In this document: positions 1,608-42,996 of the stretch, one piece after another
Layout of the letters: each line of letters begins with the position of its first letter
Numbering within the stretch: position 1 is the stretch's first letter
Origin: Candidatus Uhrbacteria bacterium
GTDB lineage: Bacteria > Patescibacteriota > Patescibacteriia > UBA9934
Assembly (NCBI GenBank): GCA_018664485.1
Contig: JABJOE010000002.1
Coordinates: 11,896 to 75,895 of the forward strand
DNA: 64,000 bases
Direction: 5' to 3'
Made by a program: the position numbers and the translations under genes
The notes under the pieces: generated by a model
Seen by the model: the letters and a program-made list of their open reading frames with translations, nothing else
What the model was told of the DNA's origin: nothing
The model's database searches: none

Positions 1608-2828
1608 ATGACCTACCTTCCAACGATGTTGGCCCTGCTCGGATTCTCTACCGCGCATGCTGCGCGAAACGAGATCCCGGCCGAGCCTACCCCCATCACC
1701 TACACAGTCTTCATTGGCCCGAGCTATGAGCTTCAGGGTCAGCCCACCTTCACCAAGGGCGCCGCAACCTGCGAAGCGCTCGCAAGCCGTTTCGAGTCGG
1801 AAACGAACCCGGCGTCTATCGCCCTGTGCGGTATCGACGCTACGAAAGATGGGATCACTTCTGCACTCTCCGTAACGGTTTCAGCCCTCACGCCACATGA
1901 CAACCTCCTGGTTGTTTATCTGGGTCAGGGTTGGGAGACACAGGGCGGACACTACAAGCTGCTGCCTGCTGACTTCTCCCTTGAAAGTGGGATCGCCGGT
2001 CTCGAAGAATCAAGCATTGATTTCGAGCGTGACTTCAAGTGGACGCTTCGCAATGCATCCAACCAAGGTGGTGAAGTCGTAATCCTGATGGACGCCGTTC
2101 ACTCCGTTCACATTGAGCTCACGCCCTCCGGTGTAGAAGAGGGGGAGCCTTCCGGAATCTTGACGATCGGACCGACTGCAGCCAACTTCAATGATGGCCA
2201 AGATGCAGGGCTGCTGATCGTTTCTGCCACAGGAGGCGAGTACACCATCGATGACGGACTCTTCGGAGGTATCGTTGAAGATTCACTCGCAGGCCAGGCG
2301 GACGAAGACGGAGACGGCAAGCTCACCTTCGGGGAGCTCAAGCTGTTCGTGTTGTCGGAAAGTGCCACAAGGACAAAAGGCCAACAGAAAGGGCTGAGCG
2401 AAGGGCCGTGGATGCTGATGCATGAAGTGCATTTCATGGACCTTCCAGTCCCGAGTGCACCGAAGCGCCAGCGGAGCGGCTTGAATGTCGCGAGTCTGCG
2501 CAAGCCTGCGCTCTACAGCGGCATCGGTCTGTCCGTTGCCGGATGTGGGGTCACGATTGTCGGGCGAGTGATGGCAAACGGTGCCTACGCAGACATGGAC
2601 GCAGGTAACTACAGCGACCGCGACCAATACAACGACCTCGTGGGCACCTACGAAACTGGTGCCGGGCTCTACCCGGTTGGAATCGCAACCTGCACCACGG
2701 GTCTCGTACTCACCGCAACGAGCTTCATTCTCGGAAAAGGGAATGGTGACAAGAAGGTCACCCTCACGCCCGCCGTGACCGGAACCACCGGAGCCAACGC
2801 AACCGTCGGATTCACCGCTCGCTGGTGA
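1608..2828 (+). CDS. secreted EF-hand calcium-binding protein with a possible degenerate caspase-like (C14) core; GC-rich, likely horizontally acquired
   Basis: Signal peptide MTYLPTMLALLGFSTAHA. A canonical EF-hand loop DEDGDGKLTFGE is present. The segments LLVVYLGQGWE and VVILMDAVHS resemble the caspase His and Cys motifs with both catalytic residues replaced. A spot count gives about 58% GC against about 42% in the neighbouring genes. Confidence 0.55.
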   Translation: MTYLPTMLALLGFSTAHAARNEIPAEPTPITYTVFIGPSYELQGQPTFTKGAATCEALASRFESETNPASIALCGIDATKDGITSALSVTVSALTPHDNLLVVYLGQGWETQGGHYKLLPADFSLESGIAGLEESSIDFERDFKWTLRNASNQGGEVVILMDAVHSVHIELTPSGVEEGEPSGILTIGPTAANFNDGQDAGLLIVSATGGEYTIDDGLFGGIVEDSLAGQADEDGDGKLTFGELKLFVLSESATRTKGQQKGLSEGPWMLMHEVHFMDLPVPSAPKRQRSGLNVASLRKPALYSGIGLSVAGCGVTIVGRVMANGAYADMDAGNYSDRDQYNDLVGTYETGAGLYPVGIATCTTGLVLTATSFILGKGNGDKKVTLTPAVTGTTGANATVGFTARW

Positions 2829-5301: not shown

Positions 5302-8300
5302 CTATACTGTCTCGTCGTCGATATCACCCTCTAACTCGCTACTCGTATCTGCAATTTCTTGCTCATCGTCTACGGTGTCGGCGTCTACATCATCCTGCGC
5401 AACCTCCGTGACTTCATCTTGCACATCATCAACCTGAACGTCGGACTCCTCTTCTTCCTCAGAGACAACTTCTTCTTCGACTACATCTTCTTCGATTAAT
5501 TCCTCTTCAACAGCTTCCTCAACTATCTCTTCTTCCTGCTCGTCCTCAACTATTTCCTCAACCTCTTCCTCGTCCGTTGTCTCATCAATATCTTCTACAG
5601 AATCGACTATCTCTTCTTGCTCATCGTCGTTATCCTCATCCTCGGCCTCGTCTGTATCGACCGCCTCTGCCGCGTCATCACTGTCGTCAACTTCTGAGTC
5701 TGTGCCATCAAGTTGTTCGCTCTGACTGTCTTCCTCATCAATCTCCTCTTCCTCTTCAGGCTGTTCATCGTCAGTTTCCTCAGGCGCGTGATCTTTCAAA
5801 TATGCAATAACCATCCAATCAACAGTTGCAGTTGATCGAACTTCATCAATCGCCGACTCTCGAATGCTAAATCCTTCATTGTCACGATTAACAGCGTAAA
5901 GTGGACCGGTTGGCTGATCAGCCGTTAGGAAAACTCGATATGAAACGCCCTGAGCAATAATGTCGTTAAAGAGTGCGTCTTCAAATTCAAAGTTAACTGC
6001 AGCCGCACCATCTTTCAGATTTGCAGTTCCGGATAACTCAACTGTTTGCTGTCGAGAGAATGTCGCATATGTCTCCACATCTTCATTCTGATATGACCGA
6101 ACAACCTGCACCACGGCACCATTCGTTGTAATAGTTCCGTCTTGCGCGATGGACCATTGCTGACCAACTCCTGTGATTGCAGCGATGTTAATGATCTGAC
6201 CGGTGTTGAAATTAACCGTTCCAGACAGATCTAATGTTGATGCGTTGGCAAGATTTGAGATCAAACTGTCGGCAAGTGGCGCCTCGTCAACCGGACCGCC
6301 GTCATAATAGGAAGGTCGGACAAATACACTCACCGAACCTACCTCTCCTTGGAATGCTTCCATAGCGTAACCGAGAATTGGTCCCGCCTCCGTTGCTTTC
6401 ATTGCGTAACCGTCTTTACTTGAAGTTGTAAGTGGATCTCCGATTGAGATATCTCCATTTTCACCTGACACATAAGTTGGTACACGACCAGAAAGTGCTA
6501 CCGGTACATGGCCCTCAATATTCTCACCCGCCAAGAACCCAGGTTGTGTTGAAATGATACCTGCGATCCGTTGATCATATGTTATTCCGGTCGATCGCAT
6601 TACGTGCTCATCGTCATTTGCAAAGACAACTACTTCTCCCGGAGCAAGCGTCTGCGCTGACGGGAACATCTCTGCAAAGTCATATGATCCAGCACCCCAA
6701 CCAGAAGCATTGGTACGCATGAAGTCTCCACCAGCACCTGACGATCCGTCGTAGTAAATGTATGTATCAGTTTGAAGTGTTCCGCGGTCAGATGGGTACA
6801 GTCGACCAGCGATTGCCAGATCTCCATCGTTATTTACGAAAGCAACTTCATCCTCATCGTCATTTAATATAGAAAGTTTGTAGTCACTACTGTCAGTGAC
6901 ATCTGTAAACATACTCATTCCAATTGTACTATCGGTATCGCCCAACATTGTAAGCGCTGATGAGATAGCTACGTCCCCGTCATCGTCAGAAATGATTCCG
7001 ACACCATGCCATCCTGGCTGAATGAATACCTGGATCAATCCGGTACCTGAGCTATGAGCTTCAAGCGCACGACCAATCGTGTATCCGACTCCTGTAGCTT
7101 TCATTGCAACTCCGTTTACCGATGATAGCGCTACGTAATCACCTATCGAGATTGACCCACCGTCAGTATTTACGTTGACCGGAACCTGTCCTAGAAGAGC
7201 TACAGGTACATACCCGCCGTCATCTTGCCAATTGTCTGTCCAGTTACCAAGTGTATTTGGATTTACAGATAAAACACCAATCACCCCCGAAGGATCATTT
7301 GCAACAACAGCTTCTCCAGATGAGGTTAGAGAAATTACATCACCTCTGACGAAATCTGCGTATGTCCCATCAAATAACTCGGCGTAATCAGACCCTGCAG
7401 ACGCAGCGGTCACCCCTCCAGACCCATCACCCTCGATGGCTCCGATAGGTGTACCTGTAGCATCTCGAAATTCAATATAATCACAGGCAGTTGTCGGAGT
7501 GCTTCCCGATGCTGTAGAACAGGCTTGAATAGAAATTCCCTGCCTATTATCGTTATCGCCCCCATTTACAAATGACGCCATGAATGTACTTGTACTCGCG
7601 TCAACTACAAGTACCTGTGAAGAGCTCGTTCCGGCTCCATTAATTTCAAAGGCGTCCCACACAAATAGATCACCAGCTCCAGTCGCCACGTTTGCGGTAG
7701 TAGGAGTAGAGGTGGACTCGATGTGAGTTGCAGAGCCATAGAAATATCCGGCATAGTTATTCGTTCCTGCACTCGCCTGACCACGTACACCGTAACGAGT
7801 TGTCCCTTCAGTATTTGAACTAAAGTCTCCACCCATAGTTGTAGTCGCTGTTCCAGAACCTGCTGTAACATTTCCAAGCACACCTTTAGCCGTTGTAATC
7901 ACACCATTGAGTGGGATCACCTGACCGTGCACACCAATTACATTTCCAACCGTCGTAGCTGCAGCATCATTCGTTCCCTGCCCTAAAACACCAACAACCC
8001 TGTTGCCTACAGCAGTTCCGTTAGTGGACTGGTTTTCAGATACACCTTTGATCGCATACATCTCTTCGATCTGTCCGGATGATGACGTGTTAACCACCTC
8101 AGACAAAAAACCAATAGGCTCATGTAATTCTCCTCCACCACCTTCACTTACGTCTGACACAAGTCTGACATGTGACCCTACTGCCTGATACGTACCGGCA
8201 CCTCCACTTGCACCAGCAGATACGGTTCCTGAGGTATCAAATGCATACGTAACCCCTGGTGACGCTCCATAATCTGGCGCTGCAAAGTGCTCTATATTAC

Positions 8301-23225: not shown

Positions 23226-24182
23226 CTATGCGGCGGCGCGCTGGTTGCTGAAGGCCGTACCGATCGGGGTCTCCAGAGCCAACTCGGTGGCCGGGACGTC
23301 GAAGCGGACGGACTCGTCCTTGTCCACGATGGTGCACAGGTCGAGCTTGACCAGGCCACGACGACCGAGGGTCTGCATGACGATGCCCTTGGTCGGACCA
23401 AGGAGGGTCAGCTCGATGCCGGTGTTGGTCACCTTGAAGGCCCAGCCGTAGTTGCCGATGGACACGGTGGCCATCACGTCGGTGTCGCTGTAGACGCGGG
23501 TTGCGATCGGGGTCTTGTTGTCGTCGTAGCCCTTGAGCTTGGAGATGTCGATCTTGCCGTACCGAGCGCCGTCGAGGAACTTCGAGATCTTGAAGTCGTC
23601 GGAGTGCTTGGCGATGGCGAGCTTCATGTCCTTGCTCGGGATCACGGTCATGACGGCGCTCTTGCCATCGACCACGTCGAGGTGACCGGACACGGACAGG
23701 GCCACGGTGGTCTTGCCGATGTTCACCTTCTCGAAGCTGAACTCGCCGGTCTGCGTACCGATGACGGTGGACCAGGAGGAGCCGGGGTCGACGATCTTGG
23801 TGATGCCGGTGTCGTCGTAGTCGAGGGCCTGGCTGAAGTCGAGACGCTGCGCGGTGAAGTGCAGGACGTCGTTCCAGCCGTCGTCGTTGAGCTCGGTGTC
23901 GATGTCGCCGTTGGCGCTCAGAGCCGTCGCGAAGATCATGCCGTTGGTGTTCACGCCGCGAACGATGCGGTTGGTGTTGTCGGGCAGATCACTCACGTTG
24001 GAGCTGACGTAGAAGGTGCGGTCGGCCTGGTCGTAGCTGACGTGGCTGTTGGAGCCGGCGTCGAACAGGACGTCGTCGCTCATGTCGTCGTCGCTGTCCA
24101 TGTTCACGACCTTGTAGGGCGCGGTGGGCATGGTGGCGAAGAGAGCGAGGAAGGTCAGGATCTGGATCTTGTTGGTATGCAA
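23226..24182 (-). CDS. secreted hypothetical protein encoded in a GC-rich (about 63%) island
   Basis: Probable TTG start giving the signal peptide MHTNKIQILTFLALFATMPTAPYK (ORF track extends to 24284). Composition is beta-rich; the long antisense ORF 23160..24389 is a GC artefact. A spot GC count gives about 63% against about 42% genome-typical. Confidence 0.5.
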   Translation of the reverse strand: MHTNKIQILTFLALFATMPTAPYKVVNMDSDDDMSDDVLFDAGSNSHVSYDQADRTFYVSSNVSDLPDNTNRIVRGVNTNGMIFATALSANGDIDTELNDDGWNDVLHFTAQRLDFSQALDYDDTGITKIVDPGSSWSTVIGTQTGEFSFEKVNIGKTTVALSVSGHLDVVDGKSAVMTVIPSKDMKLAIAKHSDDFKISKFLDGARYGKIDISKLKGYDDNKTPIATRVYSDTDVMATVSIGNYGWAFKVTNTGIELTLLGPTKGIVMQTLGRRGLVKLDLCTIVDKDESVRFDVPATELALETPIGTAFSNQRAAA

Positions 24183-24429
24183 GGTGCACTCTTTTTGAAG
24201 TGGACTCGTAAGTCCGGGTTGTTGCTCTATCCAAGGTTGGGGTCGAGACGGCGCAATTCTGCCACAGCTAGCGAATCCTGTCAAGGGATTTGTGCAGGTA
24301 TCGGAAAAGTGGCCATAAAAGTAAAAGAAATATTTATATCTAATCTAAGCCAATATATAAGTCCACAGGCACCGGGCGTTACACAATGATGTGTCGTATA
24401 ATGCTAATATAACGTTTCTATACCTATAT

Positions 24430-25347
24430 ATGGCAACAAAATCAGTCATACAAAAGCATATTCGTCGATATCTTGAGTACCTTGAAGTTGAGCGAGGTCG
24501 CTCAGCACGTACCGTCCGTAACTACGACTTCTACCTCACGCGCTTTGCGACATGGGCAGAATTCCCAAACCCATCAAAAATCGATAAAGAGCTCCTTCGC
24601 CGATATCGCCTTCACCTCAATCGAGACATAGAAGGGCGCGACGAACCGACTCTTAAAAAGAGCACTCAGAATTATCATCTAATTGCTCTTCGTAACTTTC
24701 TTAAATATCTTTCACGCAACGACATAAAAACAATGTCGCCTGATAAGATCGAGTTAGCTAAAACCGGAACACGAAAAGTTGAGTTCCTCGAAGAAGATGA
24801 ACTGCGACGAATGTTCGGAGTGCTCGAAGATGCTGACGGGCTCATCGGTAAGCGAGACCGCGCTATGGTATACATGCTTTTTTCAACCGGCCTTCGTGTT
24901 TCAGAGTTGGCGAATTTAAAAATCGACCAAGTAAATTTGAAGCGTGAAGAGTTCACAATAAAGGGGAAGGGGTCTAAACATCGTGTTGTGTTTGTGTCGG
25001 AGAAAGCACGCAAGGCAGTGAAAGAATATCTCGACGCACGTGGTGACACGAGCCCATATATGTTTGTCGGTCACGATCGCGCAAAGGCGTCGCGCGAAAA
25101 AATGCCTGTGTCGCCCCGCACAGTGCAACGAACTATCGAACGCTACGCCGCGGAAGCCGGAATCACAAAACGCATCACACCTCACACTCTGCGTCACACA
25201 TTCGCAACCGACCTTCTGCAAAATGGTGCAGACATAAGGTCAGTGCAAGCGATGCTCGGCCACGAGTCAATTACTACAACTCAAATCTACACCCACGTCA
25301 CCGACCGTAAACTAAAAGCTGTACACAAAAAGTTTCATAATAAATAA
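24430..25347 (+). CDS. site-specific tyrosine recombinase, XerC/XerD family
   Basis: C-terminal catalytic region LRHTFATDLLQNGADIRSVQAMLGHESITTTQIYTHV with the R..HxxR..Y signature. N-terminal core-binding domain present. ORF from 24391; the likely start is MATKSVIQKH. Confidence 0.85.
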   Translation: MATKSVIQKHIRRYLEYLEVERGRSARTVRNYDFYLTRFATWAEFPNPSKIDKELLRRYRLHLNRDIEGRDEPTLKKSTQNYHLIALRNFLKYLSRNDIKTMSPDKIELAKTGTRKVEFLEEDELRRMFGVLEDADGLIGKRDRAMVYMLFSTGLRVSELANLKIDQVNLKREEFTIKGKGSKHRVVFVSEKARKAVKEYLDARGDTSPYMFVGHDRAKASREKMPVSPRTVQRTIERYAAEAGITKRITPHTLRHTFATDLLQNGADIRSVQAMLGHESITTTQIYTHVTDRKLKAVHKKFHNK

Positions 25348-40119: not shown

Positions 40120-40155
40120 ACAAAACGCCCGGTTCATCCGGGTGTTTTTGTTTTG
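40120..40155. terminator. bidirectional Rho-independent terminator between hppA and the 122-aa gene
   Basis: gcccgg-ttcat-ccgggt hairpin flanked by aaaacaaaa and tttttgtttt. Confidence 0.6.
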
Positions 40156-40157
40156 AT

Positions 40158-40526
40158 CTAGGCTAAGGAATCGAGCAACAACAGTCTATCAGCCTCCTGT
40201 GTTGTAATGACTTTCGTTCTCTGCAATGTCTTAATGAGCTCAATGGCTTTCGTGTCACCTTTTCGAAGAAGAGAAATCAAATCACCCTTTAACTCTGTTA
40301 GTTTTCGATCGATATAGTCACGCAGATCGTGATTAAGCTTGCCGAAACGACCATTAACGGATTCATCGAGCGCGCTCAACTTTAAGTCCAGCTCATCTTT
40401 CGTAACCATGTTCTCTTGAAGAAATTCAATAAGCTCGCCCAGCGTCTCATCTGTCTTTCGCTGCGAATTAGCGACCTTTTCAATCGCTGTAAGTAACTGT
40501 GCGTTTGTAATTTTTTTCTGTGTCAT
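40158..40526 (-). CDS. hypothetical coiled-coil protein (122 aa)
   Basis: Intact ORF with typical local GC content; no recognisable domain. Confidence 0.4.
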   Translation of the reverse strand: MTQKKITNAQLLTAIEKVANSQRKTDETLGELIEFLQENMVTKDELDLKLSALDESVNGRFGKLNHDLRDYIDRKLTELKGDLISLLRKGDTKAIELIKTLQRTKVITTQEADRLLLLDSLA

Positions 40527-40574
40527 ATAAATACGGTCATAAAAATAAACCGTCCTTCTCTTTCTATCTTACCA

Positions 40575-40621
40575 CGCTACAAAAGCAGAGCGCCCGCCGC
40601 GACACGATGGTCGGGCGGGCA
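40575..40621. repeat. R0: copy of the GC-rich imperfect-palindrome hairpin gcgcccgccgcgacacgatggtcgggcgggc (terminator of cassette gene A)
   Basis: Near-identical to 41058-41097; the stem gcccgccg/cgggcgggc carries a one-base bulge. Confidence 0.6.
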
Positions 40622-40650
40622 GACGGTGGCCTGAATCTTCGCGGCGGTGA

Positions 40651-40968
40651 TCAGCCTCGTGCCGGGGCAGGTGTCTTCTCCAAGAAGGTGGCGACACCGG
40701 GCCTCGTCTTGGCAGCTTCGGTAAGGACGTAAACGAGTCGCTTCAAGTGCGTCTCACGCCCCTGAATCTCTCCAAGGTTCGCACTCACCCGTGCGACAAC
40801 CAGGCTGTCCGAGCACCCGGGGTCCTTGAGCATCAGCTCGATGCGAGCAACTTCAACGGCGACTGGATCACGCCCCTTGGTCACACGCATGTAGGTGTCT
40901 TGGAGTTCGCCGATCACATAGTGTTGCAATATGGCGCCAATGTTGCGGAAAAAATCAAACCTCATCAC
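40651..40968 (-). CDS. hypothetical 105-aa protein, paralog A of a tandem GC-rich cassette
   Basis: About 60% GC. Homologous to the 41113..41430 product, with shared residues such as QH.V.G...DT, DP.C.D.L, LG and RPG.A.F....PA.AR; no known domain. Confidence 0.55.
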   Translation of the reverse strand: MMRFDFFRNIGAILQHYVIGELQDTYMRVTKGRDPVAVEVARIELMLKDPGCSDSLVVARVSANLGEIQGRETHLKRLVYVLTEAAKTRPGVATFLEKTPAPARG

Positions 40969-40998
40969 GAAAGCCTTTGTGGTAGGGCAGGACGTCGT

Positions 40999-41097
40999 TC
41001 ATCCCGGTCTATGTAGACACCTCAACATACTCCAAAAGTACGTTTACGTCAAGATGCAAAGCGCCCGCCGCGACACGATGGTCGGGCGGGCAGACTG
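40999..41097. repeat. R1: full cassette-junction repeat (promoter-like TTGACG-17 nt-TATGTT, 5' UTR, then the terminator hairpin of the upstream cassette)
   Basis: 40999-41068 matches 41470-41537 (cccgtctatgtagacacctcaac.tactccaaaag.acg...tcaa.atgcaa.gcgcccgc). 41058-41097 matches 40575-40621. Confidence 0.6.
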
Positions 41098-41112
41098 TAG
41101 GTCGAGCTTCGT

Positions 41113-41430
41113 TTAGTCTCGAGCGAGAGCCGGTTCTTCGGCCACGAATACTGCGAGGCCAGGTCGATCTTGGGCAGCGCTATGAAGCACGGCAACGAGC
41201 TGAAGAATATCCGGTTCAGAACGCAGAAAGTCTCCAAGGATGTTGTTGACCTTCATAATAATCAGCCAGTCCGGACACTCCGGGTCGCCGACCATCGCCC
41301 TGATGCGGTTCAGCGAAGCCGCCAACGGATGAACACCGTATATAAGCCGGTCCCACGTATCACTGACGGCACCTAGGACAGAGTGTTGAAACACAGCGCT
41401 CACACTTGTACGAATCAAAGCAGAGTTCAT
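41113..41430 (-). CDS. hypothetical 105-aa protein, paralog B of a tandem GC-rich cassette
   Basis: Same length and about 35% amino-acid identity to paralog A; its own promoter-like repeat lies upstream and the GC hairpin downstream. Confidence 0.55.
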   Translation of the reverse strand: MNSALIRTSVSAVFQHSVLGAVSDTWDRLIYGVHPLAASLNRIRAMVGDPECPDWLIIMKVNNILGDFLRSEPDILQLVAVLHSAAQDRPGLAVFVAEEPALARD

Positions 41431-41469
41431 TTCAGGTCCTTGTTGGGGTGCAGAGCTACTATAGCTCCC

Positions 41470-41537
41470 GTCTATGTAGACACCTCAACCTACTCCAAAA
41501 AGACGCCCTCGTCAATATGCAATGCGCCCGCGTGATT
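41470..41537. repeat. R2: promoter-like head of the cassette repeat upstream of paralog B
   Basis: The minus strand reads ATTGACG-17 nt-TAGGTT; it matches 40999-41068. Confidence 0.55.
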
Positions 41538-41709
41538 GACAAAAACCCCAGCAAACTCTACACTCCGCGCGAAGAAAGAACTAGAGCTGACTTATTTGAG
41601 GTCAGTTTTAGGCACAGGGAAAAATGCCGAGGAGGCGTACCATTAGTACGTTGACGAGTCATTTAACTCTGTAACAACAAAATGATCCAAATAAGTAAGT
41701 TACATTTTT

Positions 41710-42996
41710 ATGACATACAAGCTAGAAACTGAAGGAAAGAAAGCTACGTTTACAATCACCGTCCCACAGGCAGACGTTGAAGCTGCAATGAAGCGCGCTG
41801 CAGAACGCATTTCACAAACAACAAAGATCGATGGCTTTCGCCCAGGTAAGGCAAACTACGAAGCTATCAAGAAAAATGTAGGAGAGATGAAGCTCTTGGA
41901 AGAGTGCACCGAAGAGCTTATCCGAAACGCATTTGTAAAAGCGTCTTTGAAGGAAAATCTAGAGACTGTTGGTCAGCCATACTTCGACATGATCAAGATG
42001 GCCCCAGGAAACGACATGGTTTTTACAGCAGAAGTTGCTCTCATGCCAAAAATTACAAAGCTCGCTGACTACGAAAAGCTCTCAGTAAAAAAAGAAAGTA
42101 CTGAGCCCTCAAAAGAACTCATCGAGCAGGCTCGCGCGGACCTTGCGCGAATGCAAACAAAAGAAGTTCGCCGGCCATCTGGAGAAAAACTTCAAAAAGG
42201 AGACAAGGCTGTCATCAATCTTACAATGAAAAAGGAAGGTGTCGTGCTTGAAGGTGGCGAAGGTCGAGACCATGGTGTATATACCGGCGAAGGTCACTAC
42301 ATCAAGGGCTTGATTGAAAAAATTATCGACATGAAAGAAGGTGACAAGCAGTCTTTCACTCTCGACTTTCCAGATGACCACTACCAGAAGCACCTAGCAG
42401 GTCAGCCAATTGATTTCGAAGTTGAAGTGAAAGAAATCTTTGAACTACAGGCGCCAAAAATGGATGAAGCTTTCGCAAAGACGGTTGGATGCAAAGATCT
42501 TGCTGACTTGGAAGGTAAACTCAAAGAGAATCTAGAAAAAGAAAATATTGTTCAAGAATCTCGACGACAAGAGCAGGAAGTTCTAAAGCTCCTCGCATCA
42601 AAAACAAAGTTCGAAGAAATTTCCGACCTCCTCATCAACCAGGAAATTACAAAGATGATTGAGGAGCTGAAACAGAACATCAGCAACCGCGGACTGCAGT
42701 TTGAGGAATATCTAAAATCCATCAACAAAACGGTTGCCGACCTTAAGCTCGATTTAACACCTGACGCACTTACACGCGTTCAGATCGCTCTTATCCTCGC
42801 AGAGGTAACAAAGAAGGAAGAGATCGTTGTTGAAGGGAAGGAGCTAGATGAAGAAATTGACCGGATGGCAGAGCAATACAAAGACAACGAGGATGCAAAG
42901 AAGCAAATCTTCTCTCCTCGCTACCGAGAATACGTGCAACAACAACTATCAAACCAGAAAGTTGTTACGTTGCTCAAAGGAAAGATGGTTAAGTAG
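41710..42996 (+). CDS. tig: trigger factor
   Basis: N-terminal ribosome-binding domain (TFTITVPQADVEAAMKRA), central FKBP-like PPIase, C-terminal arms; 428 aa. Confidence 0.9.
   Translation: MTYKLETEGKKATFTITVPQADVEAAMKRAAERISQTTKIDGFRPGKANYEAIKKNVGEMKLLEECTEELIRNAFVKASLKENLETVGQPYFDMIKMAPGNDMVFTAEVALMPKITKLADYEKLSVKKESTEPSKELIEQARADLARMQTKEVRRPSGEKLQKGDKAVINLTMKKEGVVLEGGEGRDHGVYTGEGHYIKGLIEKIIDMKEGDKQSFTLDFPDDHYQKHLAGQPIDFEVEVKEIFELQAPKMDEAFAKTVGCKDLADLEGKLKENLEKENIVQESRRQEQEVLKLLASKTKFEEISDLLINQEITKMIEELKQNISNRGLQFEEYLKSINKTVADLKLDLTPDALTRVQIALILAEVTKKEEIVVEGKELDEEIDRMAEQYKDNEDAKKQIFSPRYREYVQQQLSNQKVVTLLKGKMVK

What the first reader, a model, noticed from the sequence alone, without database searches (positions are those of the whole stretch)
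40527..41700. Tandem GC-rich cassette: two divergent 105-aa paralogs, each with its own near-identical promoter/5'UTR and bulged GC-hairpin terminator
About 1.1 kb of roughly 60% GC DNA sits between ordinary-composition genes (a 122-aa hypothetical and tig). It contains two minus-strand genes of identical length whose products are clearly homologous but only about 35% identical, with shared blocks QH.V.G...DT, DP(G/E)C.D.L and LV.VL..AA..RPG.A.F....PA.AR. The non-coding flanks are far better conserved: the promoter-like TTGACG-17-TA(T/G)GTT plus leader, 40999-41068 versus 41470-41537, and the imperfect-palindrome terminators, 40575-40621 versus 41058-41097. Coding sequence diverging faster than its regulatory flanks is the signature of diversifying selection on the proteins. 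It fits cassette-like exchange of gene bodies, reminiscent of immunity/effector or polymorphic toxin-immunity arrays, phage-defence paralog sets, or antigenic variation. The protein family is not one I can name.
Basis: seen in the sequence. Interest (0 to 1): 0.7.

Follow-up and report, generated by a model that had tools for sequence, protein, structure and literature searches.

The report
Self-expressed ORFan cassettes in Uhrbacteria hotspot
Two very divergent copies of a rare small gene, each with its own nearly identical promoter and terminator hairpin, sit in a gene-swapping hotspot between two housekeeping genes of a candidate-phylum bacterium, where related genomes carry the same control elements around unrelated genes.

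Summary
Two minus-strand 105-aa ORFs (A 41113-41430, B 40651-40968) are 37-40% identical. Their synonymous sites are saturated (4-fold sites 10/27 identical; dS about 1.3, dN/dS about 0.5). Their promoter/leader blocks are 85% identical and their hairpins 95% identical, with 35 nt exact.

The genome is a Candidatus Uhrbacteria (CPR), and the locus lies about 5 kb from dnaA. The protein family is nearly unique: five members among about 15 billion proteins, no Pfam, PDB or phage match, and a generic five-helix model.

The H+-PPase-tig gap is a hotspot. Across eight related lineages it is empty (2), holds other ORFans, or holds HicAB. Lineage L026 has two unrelated ORFs followed by the same hairpin, and its terminator-promoter junction matches the window's at 26/28 nt although neutral sites are saturated. 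Lineage L030 repeats the pattern of near-identical flanks around very divergent ORFs, using different flank sequences.

Best reading: an array of insulated, moron-like transcription units at a "minimal mobile element"-type site. The cis elements are conserved by selection and homogenised within each genome, while the gene bodies evolve fast or are replaced. Diversifying selection, toxin-immunity, integron and antigenic-variation readings are not supported. Protein function is unknown.

The parts
41536..41564 (+). tig promoter (TTGACA-17-TACACT), divergent from the cassette promoters. It marks the conserved edge of the hotspot.
   Evidence: 10/12 consensus match. This stretch is 84% identical to L010, where neutral sites are near saturation. 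The GTTTTTGTCAA motif is present in L010, L026 and L031.
41517..41532 (-). Remnant of a hairpin 3' arm plus tail (CGCGGGCGCATTGCAT) upstream of the promoter of A. It matches the tail of the A-B junction and is absent from the single-copy relative L010.
   Evidence: Alignment; sequence. It implies that A's promoter block derives from a terminator-promoter junction, through array contraction or gene conversion (inference).
41487..41515 (-). Promoter of A: TTGACG (41515-41510), 17-nt spacer, TAGGTT (41492-41487).
   Evidence: The same TTGACG-17-TAGGTTGA is found in L026. The -10 is a weak consensus match, so the scanner did not list it.
41470..41486 (-). 17-nt initial transcribed block GAGGTGTCTACATAGAC, identical to the block in B. 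It contains the palindrome GTCTA-CA-TAGAC (41470-41481).
   Evidence: L010 has GTCTT-TTTT-AAGAC at the same position, with a symmetric A/T flip. Its role as an operator or a 5' stem-loop is inferred.
41113..41430 (-). Gene A: 105 aa, soluble, all-alpha, pI 5.2. RBS-like AAGGA at 41437-41441.
41063..41091 (-). Terminator hairpin of A: GCCCGCCCGAC / loop CATCGT / GTCG-C(bulge)-GGCGGGC, followed by GCTTTGCAT.
   Evidence: Covariation across 4 homologous hairpins: 97.7% of cells paired and 3 pairs with compensatory double changes.
41024..41052 (-). Promoter of B: TTGACG (41052-41047), 17-nt spacer, TATGTT (41029-41024). It directly abuts the hairpin of A, forming the T-P junction.
   Evidence: 9/12. 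The junction 41047-41074 matches L026 5204-5231 at 26/28.
41007..41023 (-). 17-nt block GAGGTGTCTACATAGAC of B, identical to the block of A.
40651..40968 (-). Gene B: 105 aa from the GTG (104 aa from the ATG at 40965), pI 9.3, paralog of A. RBS-like AAAGG at 40974-40978.
40592..40620 (-). Terminator hairpin of B, with a 35-nt core identical to that of A, followed by GCTCTGCTTTTG.
40158..40526 (-). Third gene of the variable segment: a 122-aa coiled-coil-like ORFan with low GC (0.42), absent from L010.
40154..41534 (.). Whole variable segment relative to the closest relative L010, where 487 bp carrying a single family member (P0003) takes its place.
   Evidence: homology resumes at 40153 and at 41535.
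40122..40148 (.). Bidirectional terminator shared by H+-PPase and the 122-aa gene. It marks the other conserved edge of the hotspot.

Best explanation
The 1.1-kb GC-rich stretch is two slots of a small array of self-contained accessory genes. The array occupies the H+-pyrophosphatase-tig intergenic hotspot, about 5 kb from dnaA, in a Candidatus Uhrbacteria genome.

Shown: each slot has a sigma-70-type promoter (TTGACG-17-TAKGTT), an identical 17-nt start-of-transcript block with a short palindrome, an RBS, a roughly 105-aa soluble all-alpha ORFan, and a bulged 11-bp GC hairpin. A and B are old paralogs of a very rare family, with saturated synonymous sites and amino-acid change about 20 times faster than in the neighbouring PPase. 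The hotspot is empty, or filled with other ORFans or a HicAB module, in related genomes. Homologous hairpin/promoter junctions bracket unrelated ORFs in one of them (L026).

Inferred: the promoter drives each gene independently. The palindrome is a shared operator or a 5' stem-loop that gives co-regulation. The hairpin terminates and insulates each unit from tig and PPase. The cis elements stay alike for two reasons: they are under purifying selection for these functions, and they are homogenised within a genome by short-tract gene conversion or re-duplication. The gene bodies between them drift rapidly or are replaced by incoming DNA, probably through homologous recombination in the conserved surroundings, as at a 'minimal mobile element'.

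The proteins most likely act by binding another protein. They have a small helical-repeat-like fold, the family is mostly acidic, and A and B carry opposite charge. A conflict or addiction-type accessory role is possible but is a low-confidence guess.
For: - **Architecture and repeats:**
- **Flank versus synonymous identity:**
- **Conservation follows functional elements:** -35 is 6/6, -10 is 5/6 and the 17-nt block is 17/17, but the 5' part of the spacer is about as diverged as neutral sites.
- **The hairpin is a selected structure:** 3 compensatory pair changes among 4 homologs, and it folds with z -2 to -3.3.
- **Cross-genome conservation:** the T-P junction is 26/28 identical and TAGGTTGA is shared between the window and L026. 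Their 4-fold sites are only 25-36% identical and the promoter spacer has diverged.
- **Within-genome homogenisation:** both window hairpins share one 5'-arm/loop version and both L026 hairpins share another. A hairpin-tail remnant lies upstream of A's promoter.
- **Hotspot:** L010 has one family gene; L026 has four ORFans, two of them with the shared hairpin; L030 has two 26%-identical TM paralogs with 89-96% identical flanks; L031 has HicA plus a partner; L034 has one ORFan; L029 has a GC-rich ORF; L033 and L035 are empty.
- **Unrelated gene bodies:**
- **Rarity of the family:**
- **Fast protein evolution:** A-B dN is 0.66 against PPase dN 0.032 at comparable dS.
- **Atypical composition:**
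- **Fold and charge:**
Against: - No expression, termination or binding data exist; promoter and terminator calls are consensus matches only.
- The U-tract after the hairpins is weak (GCTTTGCAT, GCTCTGCTTTTG).
- Replacement of gene bodies is inferred from non-homology in L026, not observed. No cassette was found in two different genomes' slots.
- Nine assemblies of this population show no structural variation.
- In L026 only the hairpins are repeated, not the promoters. L030's elements share architecture with the window's but little sequence.
- With only 4-5 family members and saturated dS, selection on the proteins cannot be classified.
Confidence: 0.6

Rival explanations
1. Plain tandem duplication and divergence. 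One promoter-gene-terminator unit duplicated once by microhomology. The proteins are weakly constrained and drifted, while the regulatory elements stayed similar only because they are functional. There is no cassette turnover and no homogenisation.
For: A and B are homologous, and the 463-471-bp unit has the [P]-A-[T P]-B-[T] structure expected of a tandem duplication. dN/dS is about 0.5. Conservation is patterned on promoter elements. The tig promoter is similarly conserved (84%) between genomes with dS about 1.
Against: The loop and non-stem flanks of the hairpin are also identical (35/35). Yet both hairpin copies in the window share one 5'-arm/loop version and both copies in L026 share another, which points to concerted evolution. 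L026 has near-identical hairpins after two unrelated ORFs. A hairpin-tail remnant lies upstream of A's promoter. P0003, at the same locus in L010, is more diverged at synonymous sites from A and B (pS 0.85) than PPase is between the same genomes (0.545).
Confidence: 0.2
2. Site-specific cassette platform. The bulged hairpin (11-nt arm, 6-nt centre, 12-nt arm) is a recombination site for a recombinase supplied in trans, Xer-type or other. The array would then work like an integron or like Acinetobacter dif modules, but with self-expressed cassettes.
For: Unrelated ORFs are separated by imperfect palindromes that are uniform within a genome and differ between genomes, with roughly 470-500-bp units. 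A TA module sits at the same site in L031. The 11-6-11 geometry resembles dif sites as described in PMC6449649. One arm is more conserved than the other across genomes. Several contig ends fall inside the repeats.
Against: There is no integrase next to the array. The only tyrosine recombinase in the window is Xer-like, lies 16 kb away, and scores far below the integron-integrase cut-off. No GTTRRRY/RYYYAAC cores are present. All sites are direct repeats, unlike dif modules. The same hairpin type acts as an ordinary terminator in high-GC phage contigs. Compensatory changes fit an RNA hairpin. No structural variants appear in nine assemblies.
Confidence: 0.1
3. One reading: the proteins are under diversifying selection as immunity/effector, phage-defence or antigenic-variation paralogs, and this is what makes the coding sequence outrun the flanks.
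For: Very fast amino-acid divergence (dN 0.66-0.9) within a tiny, patchily distributed family. Tandem paralogs also occur in the distant high-GC contig L011. A TA module uses the same hotspot.
Against: dN/dS is below 1 and dS is saturated. There are no PADLOC, Pfam, NCBIfam or PHROG hits. No neighbouring toxin or secretion gene exists. Neither protein has a signal peptide or TM segment (read from the sequence; no predictor was run). There are no allelic variants across nine samples.
Confidence: 0.1

Closest known systems
Phage 'morons' (Hendrix/Juhala concept; summarised in PMC3594210)
   Same: Each unit is an obvious addition between conserved genes. Its GC content differs from its surroundings, and it has its own promoter and its own terminator. 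These are the features listed in PMC3594210 and seen here.
   Different: The setting is not a prophage. The neighbours are tig, H+-PPase, pyruvate kinase and dnaA, and there is no PHROG or phage match. Here the units form a tandem array with homogenised flanks.
Minimal mobile elements (MMEs) of Neisseria (Saunders and Snyder 2002; Snyder 2007; definition quoted in PMC3082526)
   Same: [quoted passage not shown] Here the PPase-tig gap is variously filled or empty in nine lineages, counting the window.
   Different: MMEs are defined between strains of one naturally transformable species. Here the comparison is between species- or genus-level lineages of uncultured CPR bacteria. Uptake and recombination are untested. 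MMEs are not described as carrying conserved internal terminator-promoter junctions.
Chromosomal integron cassette arrays (attC/VCR repeats)
   Same: Short cassettes of about 0.5 kb hold mostly ORFan genes, sometimes TA modules. They are separated by imperfect palindromes that are nearly identical within a genome and differ between genomes.
   Different: There is no intI, no attI/Pc, and no R'/R'' core sites. The hairpin is 29 nt rather than at least 55 nt, and every cassette has its own promoter.
Paralog families with conserved upstream regions and divergent coding parts, such as Borrelia erp/UHB loci (recalled from memory, not checked here)
   Same: Near-identical promoter/5' regions sit in front of strongly divergent paralogous coding sequences, attributed to recombination.
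   Different: Those are plasmid-borne surface lipoprotein families with many copies. Here there are two chromosomal copies of a soluble protein, and the 3' hairpins are conserved as well.

Membership tests
Phage moron | Own promoter and own terminator flanking a single gene | tested here: met
   TTGACG-17-TAKGTT lies upstream of each gene and a bulged GC hairpin with compensatory changes lies downstream. This is sequence-level evidence only; activity is untested.
Phage moron | Base composition differs from the surrounding genes | tested here: met
   GC is 0.56 (GC3 0.55 and 0.68) against 0.47 for the window and GC3 of 0.41-0.45 for PPase and tig.
Phage moron | Resides in a phage or prophage genome | tested here: not met
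   The neighbours are housekeeping genes near dnaA. There are no PHROG, phage tblastn or viral-contig hits.
Minimal mobile element | A pair of conserved flanking genes with different whole-gene cassettes between them in different genomes | tested here: met
   PPase and tig flank 0-4 unrelated genes in L010, L026, L029, L030, L031, L033, L034 and L035.
Minimal mobile element | Exchange by transformation and homologous recombination in the flanks | not testable with these tools
   This needs population read data or experiments. Nine assemblies of this population are invariant.
Integron cassette array | Adjacent integron integrase (intI) with attI and Pc | tested here: not met
   The genes within about 6 kb on either side are listed and none is a recombinase. 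The only tyrosine recombinase in the window (24391-25344) scores 139 bits against a cut-off of 265 for TIGR02249 and is Xer-like.
Integron cassette array | attC sites with R''/R' cores (RYYYAAC ... GTTRRRY), 55-140 nt | tested here: not met
   The hairpin is 29 nt and lacks these cores in every copy.
Integron cassette array | Mostly promoterless cassettes expressed from Pc | tested here: not met
   Each unit has its own near-consensus -35 and a 17-nt spacing.
Polymorphic toxin / immunity array | Adjacent toxin gene or orphan toxin-domain fragment, with the immunity gene immediately downstream | tested here: not met
   No toxin, Rhs, CDI or T6SS/T7SS domain is present in or beside the unit.
Type II toxin-antitoxin pair | Two different small proteins co-transcribed from one autoregulated promoter | tested here: not met
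   A and B are paralogs in separate promoter-terminator units. There are no TA family hits. A real HicA module occupies the same gap in L031.
Xer-dependent dif modules | Modules bounded by 28-bp XerC/XerD sites (11-6-11) in alternating orientation that resemble the host dif site | tested here: inconclusive
   The hairpin has an 11-6-12 geometry, but any terminator of this size would. All copies are direct repeats. The host dif site is not in the window.
Antigenic / phase-variation cassette system | Silent promoterless donor copies plus one expression site or an invertase, with variants in the population | tested here: not met
   Both copies have promoters. There is no invertase nearby. No coding variants appear in nine assemblies.
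Any named protein family (Pfam, NCBIfam, PHROG, PADLOC, PDB) | Significant profile or structure match | tested here: not met

The most novel reading that the evidence does not exclude
The hairpin-promoter junctions may be the boundary or recombination sites of a CPR-specific cassette platform. It would have no dedicated integrase and would use Xer or homologous recombination after DNA uptake. It would capture GC-rich foreign ORFans and express each from its own insulated slot next to the replication origin, as a functional analogue of integrons or dif modules with self-expressed cassettes.
Probability: 0.12. Interest if true: 0.8.

Novelty: new variant of a known kind. Interest (0 to 1): 0.5.

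Why it matters
CPR/Patescibacteria have tiny genomes, and how they gain and express new genes is poorly understood. This locus shows a defined place, next to the origin and between two essential genes, where foreign-looking ORFans are held as individually promoted and terminated units. The control elements outlast the genes between them.

If the conserved junctions prove to be exchange boundaries, this would be a simple integrase-less way of cassette turnover in a major uncultured lineage. Even on the conservative reading it offers three things: a clean natural example of regulatory DNA conserved far beyond synonymous saturation, candidate promoter, operator and terminator parts for organisms that lack genetic tools, and a new and very rare small-protein family.

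Tried and rejected
- **Homology of A and B to known families.** Pfam, NCBIfam, PHROGs, PADLOC, PDB sequence and profile searches, and tblastn against phages and plasmids, gave nothing.
- **Family extension.** A word-index search with 2- and 5-sequence profiles and an exhaustive HMMER search found only P0003 and P0004. P0005 and P0006 are low-complexity repeat proteins and were rejected. Degenerate-pattern scans of genome, metagenome and viral contigs gave one marginal hit, L032. It scores 10.9 bits, matches only around the DPECPDW motif that the search itself required, and was rejected.
- **The hairpin as a family-specific or mobile element.** The pattern scan of viral contigs gave 12 hits. 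All were ordinary terminators in high-GC contigs with no family gene nearby. The T-P junction is absent from viral contigs.
- **Rfam.** Nothing was found in the region.
- **tig-based scans** of genome contigs and metagenome contigs found nothing, so those collections appear to lack this lineage.
- **DGR-type targeted mutagenesis.** Considered and set aside because divergence is spread over all codon positions and the whole gene. No search for a reverse transcriptase was made.
- **WXG100/Esx-like pair.** Considered because the proteins are about 100 aa, helical, and occur as tandem paralogs in a high-GC contig. Rejected: no Pfam hit and no WXG motif in the sequence.
- **Assembly chimera.** Rejected.
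- **A and B as DNA-binding autoregulators of their own palindrome.** Thought unlikely because four of five members are acidic and no HTH-like structural match was found. Not excluded for B (pI 9.3).
Full report
**1. What is there**

Two ORFs of 105 codons lie head-to-tail on the minus strand between tig (41710-42996, +) and a 122-aa ORF (40158-40526, -). They are A (41113-41430) and B (40651-40968; 104 aa if the ATG at 40965 is used). The segment has 55-59% GC in a 47% GC window. A and B are clearly homologous: BLASTP gives 40% identity over 96 aa at E 1e-25, and identity is 37% over the full length with no gaps.

A promoter/leader block, 41004-41068 vs 41467-41531, is 85% identical. A hairpin block, 40585-40627 vs 41056-41098, is 95% identical with 35 nt exact. 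Neither occurs anywhere else in the 64 kb, and shuffles expect zero copies.

**2. Is the contrast between flanks and coding sequence real?**

Yes.

| Measure (A vs B) | Value |
|---|---|
| Coding DNA identity | 52% |
| Identity by codon position 1/2/3 | 51/63/41% |
| 4-fold sites identical | 10/27 |
| Nei-Gojobori pS, dS | 0.62, about 1.3 |
| dN | 0.66 |
| dN/dS | about 0.5 |

The flanks are far more alike than 4-fold sites. The hairpin is 41/43 identical (p=1e-7) and the promoter block 55/65 (p=2e-5).

The codon-position pattern, dN/dS below 1 and intact homologs elsewhere show that both ORFs are real protein-coding genes. They do not show diversifying selection.

**3. Anatomy of one unit (read on the minus strand)**

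- The unit opens with TTGACG, a 17-nt spacer, then TAGGTT in A or TATGTT in B.
- An identical 17-mer follows, GAGGTGTCTACATAGAC, containing the palindrome GTCTA-CA-TAGAC.
- A diverged leader comes next, then an RBS-like AAGGA or AAAGG, then the ORF.
- The 3' UTR is unalignable between the two units.
- The hairpin is GCCCGCCCGAC-CATCGT-GTCG-C-GGCGGGC, an 11-bp stem with one bulged C, followed by GCTTTGCAT in A or GCTCTGCTTTTG in B.

A's hairpin abuts B's promoter, so the array reads [P]-A-[T P]-B-[T].

Within the promoter block, identity follows function. The -35 is 6/6, the -10 is 5/6 and the 17-mer is 17/17. The 5' half of the spacer is about as diverged as neutral sites.

Upstream of A's promoter lies a remnant of the hairpin's 3' arm and tail (CGCGGGCGCATTGCAT, 41517-41532). 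The single-copy relative L010 lacks it. A's promoter block therefore derives from a T-P junction, either by loss of a former upstream unit or by gene conversion.

The scanner lists B's promoter, the tig promoter (TTGACA-17-TACACT, 41536-41564, +) and B's hairpin. The hairpins fold better than shuffles, with z of -2 to -3.3.

**4. Organism and population**

Protein A is NCBI MBT4856614.1 from a Candidatus Uhrbacteria MAG, and the longest contig carrying it is 986 kb. The locus lies about 5 kb from dnaA. The surrounding order is dnaA, rnpA, a PF1765-like gene, an inositol-phosphatase-family gene (Pfam Inositol_P), pyruvate kinase, tig, A, B, the 122-aa ORF, H+-PPase, a LysM/M23 peptidase and a ComM-like gene.

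Nine contigs from independent assemblies are 99.9-100% identical across the locus. Only three SNPs were found: 41029 and 40994 in B's promoter and leader, and 41991 in tig. There are no structural variants. The "variants" in B's protein cluster are only alternative start calls.

**5. The protein family**

There are no hits in Pfam, NCBIfam, PHROGs, PADLOC or PDB sequences, and none in phage or plasmid records.

An exhaustive HMMER search of 1.84 billion cluster representatives found only two further members.
- P0003 (113 aa) is on L010.
- P0004 (112 aa) is on L011, a 656-nt contig with GC3 of about 0.9. There it is preceded, 20 nt upstream, by a third and more divergent partial paralog.

Pairwise identities within the family fall between 19% and 40%. 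Extra scans of genome, metagenome and viral contigs added nothing credible.

**6. The hairpin travels with the family and is a selected structure**

The hairpins after A, B, P0003 and P0004 align. On the 11-pair stem, 97.7% of cells pair. Three pairs carry compensatory double changes: G:C to C:G in L011, and C:G to U:A and G:C to A:U in L010. A fourth pair changes to a wobble.

The same hairpin type also occurs as an ordinary terminator, followed by a T-run, in high-GC phage-like contigs that have no family gene nearby. The sequence as such is not a family-specific or mobile signature.

**7. The decisive context: a hotspot with recurring architecture**

The closest relative is L010, where PPase is 95% identical in protein, dS is 0.97 and dN is 0.032. 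It is collinear with the window up to positions 40153 and 41535. In between it has only 487 bp carrying a single family member, P0003, with a homologous promoter (TTGACA-17-TATAAA), a palindrome at the same place (GTCTT-TTTT-AAGAC) and a homologous hairpin. P0003 is no closer to A than to B (32% and 37%). It is more diverged from both at synonymous sites (pS 0.85) than PPase is between the two genomes (pS 0.545).

Using tig homologs to fetch more distant Uhrbacteria, the PPase-tig gap looks like this:

| Lineage (tig aa identity) | Content of the PPase-tig gap |
|---|---|
| L033 (60%) | Empty, 98 nt |
| L035 (60%) | Empty, 229 nt |
| L034 (61%) | One 155-aa ORFan with its own GC hairpin |
| L029 (75%) | A GC-rich ORF plus hairpin |
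| L031 (61%) | HicA plus a partner |
| L030 (63%) | Two tandem TM-anchored paralogs |
| L026 (69%) | Four ORFans at 61% GC |

None of these ORFs has a Pfam domain or any similarity to A or B.

- **L030.** The two paralogs are only 26% identical over 54 aa. Each is preceded by an 89%-identical 65-nt block (TTGACG-17-TATCTT plus a leader with two small palindromes) and followed by a 96%-identical hairpin/tail block.
- **L026.** Two mutually unrelated ORFs (147 and 123 aa) are each followed by a 51-nt hairpin block that is 90% identical between them, and a third hairpin-tail remnant lies near PPase. This hairpin is homologous to the window's: AAAGCGCCCGCCGCGAC is shared. The T-P junction GTCG(C/T)GGCGGGCGCTT(T/C)GCATCTTGACG matches at 26/28, and it is followed after a diverged 17-nt spacer by the same TAGGTTGA.

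Between the window and L026, 4-fold sites in PPase and tig are only 25-36% identical. The junction is therefore conserved far beyond neutrality (p about 2e-9). The diverged spacer argues against recent transfer of the junction.

Within each genome the hairpin copies share their own version of the 5' arm and loop. That is concerted evolution or lineage-specific re-duplication. In all the DNA held, these elements occur only inside the hotspot.

**8. Interpretation**

*Shown.* This is a hotspot between two conserved genes, with variable, compositionally atypical, mostly ORFan content. The content is organised as autonomous promoter-gene-hairpin units. Their cis elements are conserved across genomes and homogenised within genomes, while the ORFs are either extremely diverged paralogs or unrelated.

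*Inferred.* Three steps are inferred.
- The elements work as promoter, operator or 5' stem-loop, and terminator/insulator.
- They are kept by purifying selection plus short-tract conversion.
- Gene bodies are replaced by recombination with incoming DNA.

*Comparison with known systems.* The architecture matches the definition of a phage moron: own promoter, own terminator and deviant GC (PMC3594210). The site matches the definition of a Neisseria minimal mobile element: two conserved genes with different whole-gene cassettes between them (PMC3082526). However, the setting is not a prophage, and the conserved internal T-P junctions are not part of either concept.

Integron membership fails. There is no intI, the only tyrosine recombinase in the window is Xer-like and 16 kb away, there are no attC cores, and the cassettes have promoters. 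Toxin-immunity, TA, antigenic-variation and defence readings have no positive evidence. A dif-module-like, Xer-dependent reading remains a low-probability possibility. Its support is the hairpin's 11-6-12 geometry (compare PMC6449649), but the direct orientation of all copies and the ordinary-terminator behaviour of the hairpin weigh against it.

**9. Verdict**

I rate the finding a new variant of a known kind, namely a moron-like, MME-type hotspot array in a CPR bacterium carrying a new and very rare protein family. Interest is 0.5. The most novel reading not excluded is an integrase-less cassette platform using the hairpin-promoter junctions as exchange boundaries (probability about 0.12).

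Noticed in passing
window 41029 and 40994 (vs L007/L008 and L006): Apart from one SNP in tig, the only SNPs in the locus across nine assemblies fall in B's promoter and leader. 41029 T>C changes the first T of the -10 box (TATGTT to CATGTT) in two assemblies. 40994 C>T lies in the leader.
   Followed up: partly
window 41525, 41066, 41011, 40589: Five contig ends from independent assemblies fall inside the repeated promoter and hairpin blocks; two of them share position 41525. This is most likely de Bruijn graph breaks at the 35-nt repeat in low-coverage assemblies, but it would also fit structural heterogeneity at the repeats.
   Followed up: no
window 1608-2828 (+) and 23226-24284 (-): Two other GC-rich islets (0.55-0.64 GC) each encode a single large ORF of 406 or 352 aa (not searched against any family library) followed by a GC hairpin. 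The first has a near-consensus promoter (TTGACA-17-TAAATT). The hairpins are followed by TTGCA-type tails (TATTGCAC, CTTTCTGCATCT) like the GCTTTGCAT after hairpin A. The second islet lies next to the Xer-like recombinase gene (24391-25347).
   Followed up: partly
window 40536-40546 and 41704-41714: A perfect 11-nt inverted repeat (GTCATAAAAAT / ATTTTTATGAC) brackets the A-B segment. One copy overlaps the tig start codon. About 0.2 such repeats are expected by chance in this span, so it is probably coincidence.
   Followed up: no
L030 4963-5952: An unrelated pair of tandem, TM-anchored paralogs (about 110 aa each, 26% identical) sits at the same hotspot in another Uhrbacteria lineage, on the opposite strand. 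Their promoter/leader blocks are 89% identical and their hairpin blocks 96% identical. The gene caller's 130-aa start for the second gene probably lies inside the conserved leader, and the true start is likely the ATG at 5565.
   Followed up: partly
L031 5293-5848: A HicA toxin gene and a 107-aa partner with no Pfam hit occupy the same PPase-tig gap, driven from a TTGACG-17-TAAAAA promoter at the position of A's promoter.
   Followed up: partly
L026 3965-4075: A roughly 95-nt imperfect palindrome lies between PPase and a plus-strand 154-aa ORFan. It ends in the same GCGGGCGCTTTGTTTTG tail as the cassette hairpins.
   Followed up: no
L011 1-656: A high-GC contig (GC3 about 0.9) from an unknown organism carries two family members as a tight operon with a 20-nt spacer, followed by the conserved bulged hairpin. 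It is a possible donor-type context. P0003 and P0004 share a C-terminal tail, IEDVG..V..DD, that A and B lack.
   Followed up: partly
L024/L025: In the lineage with 73% tig identity, two independent 20-kb contigs both end 13 nt upstream of tig. The assemblies break exactly at the hotspot.
   Followed up: no
L032 79-723: A 214-aa protein on a high-GC metagenome contig shares the motif QDPECPDW and the preceding helix with protein A (10.9 bits). The match is too weak, and the scan that found it required the motif, so it cannot be called homology.
   Followed up: yes
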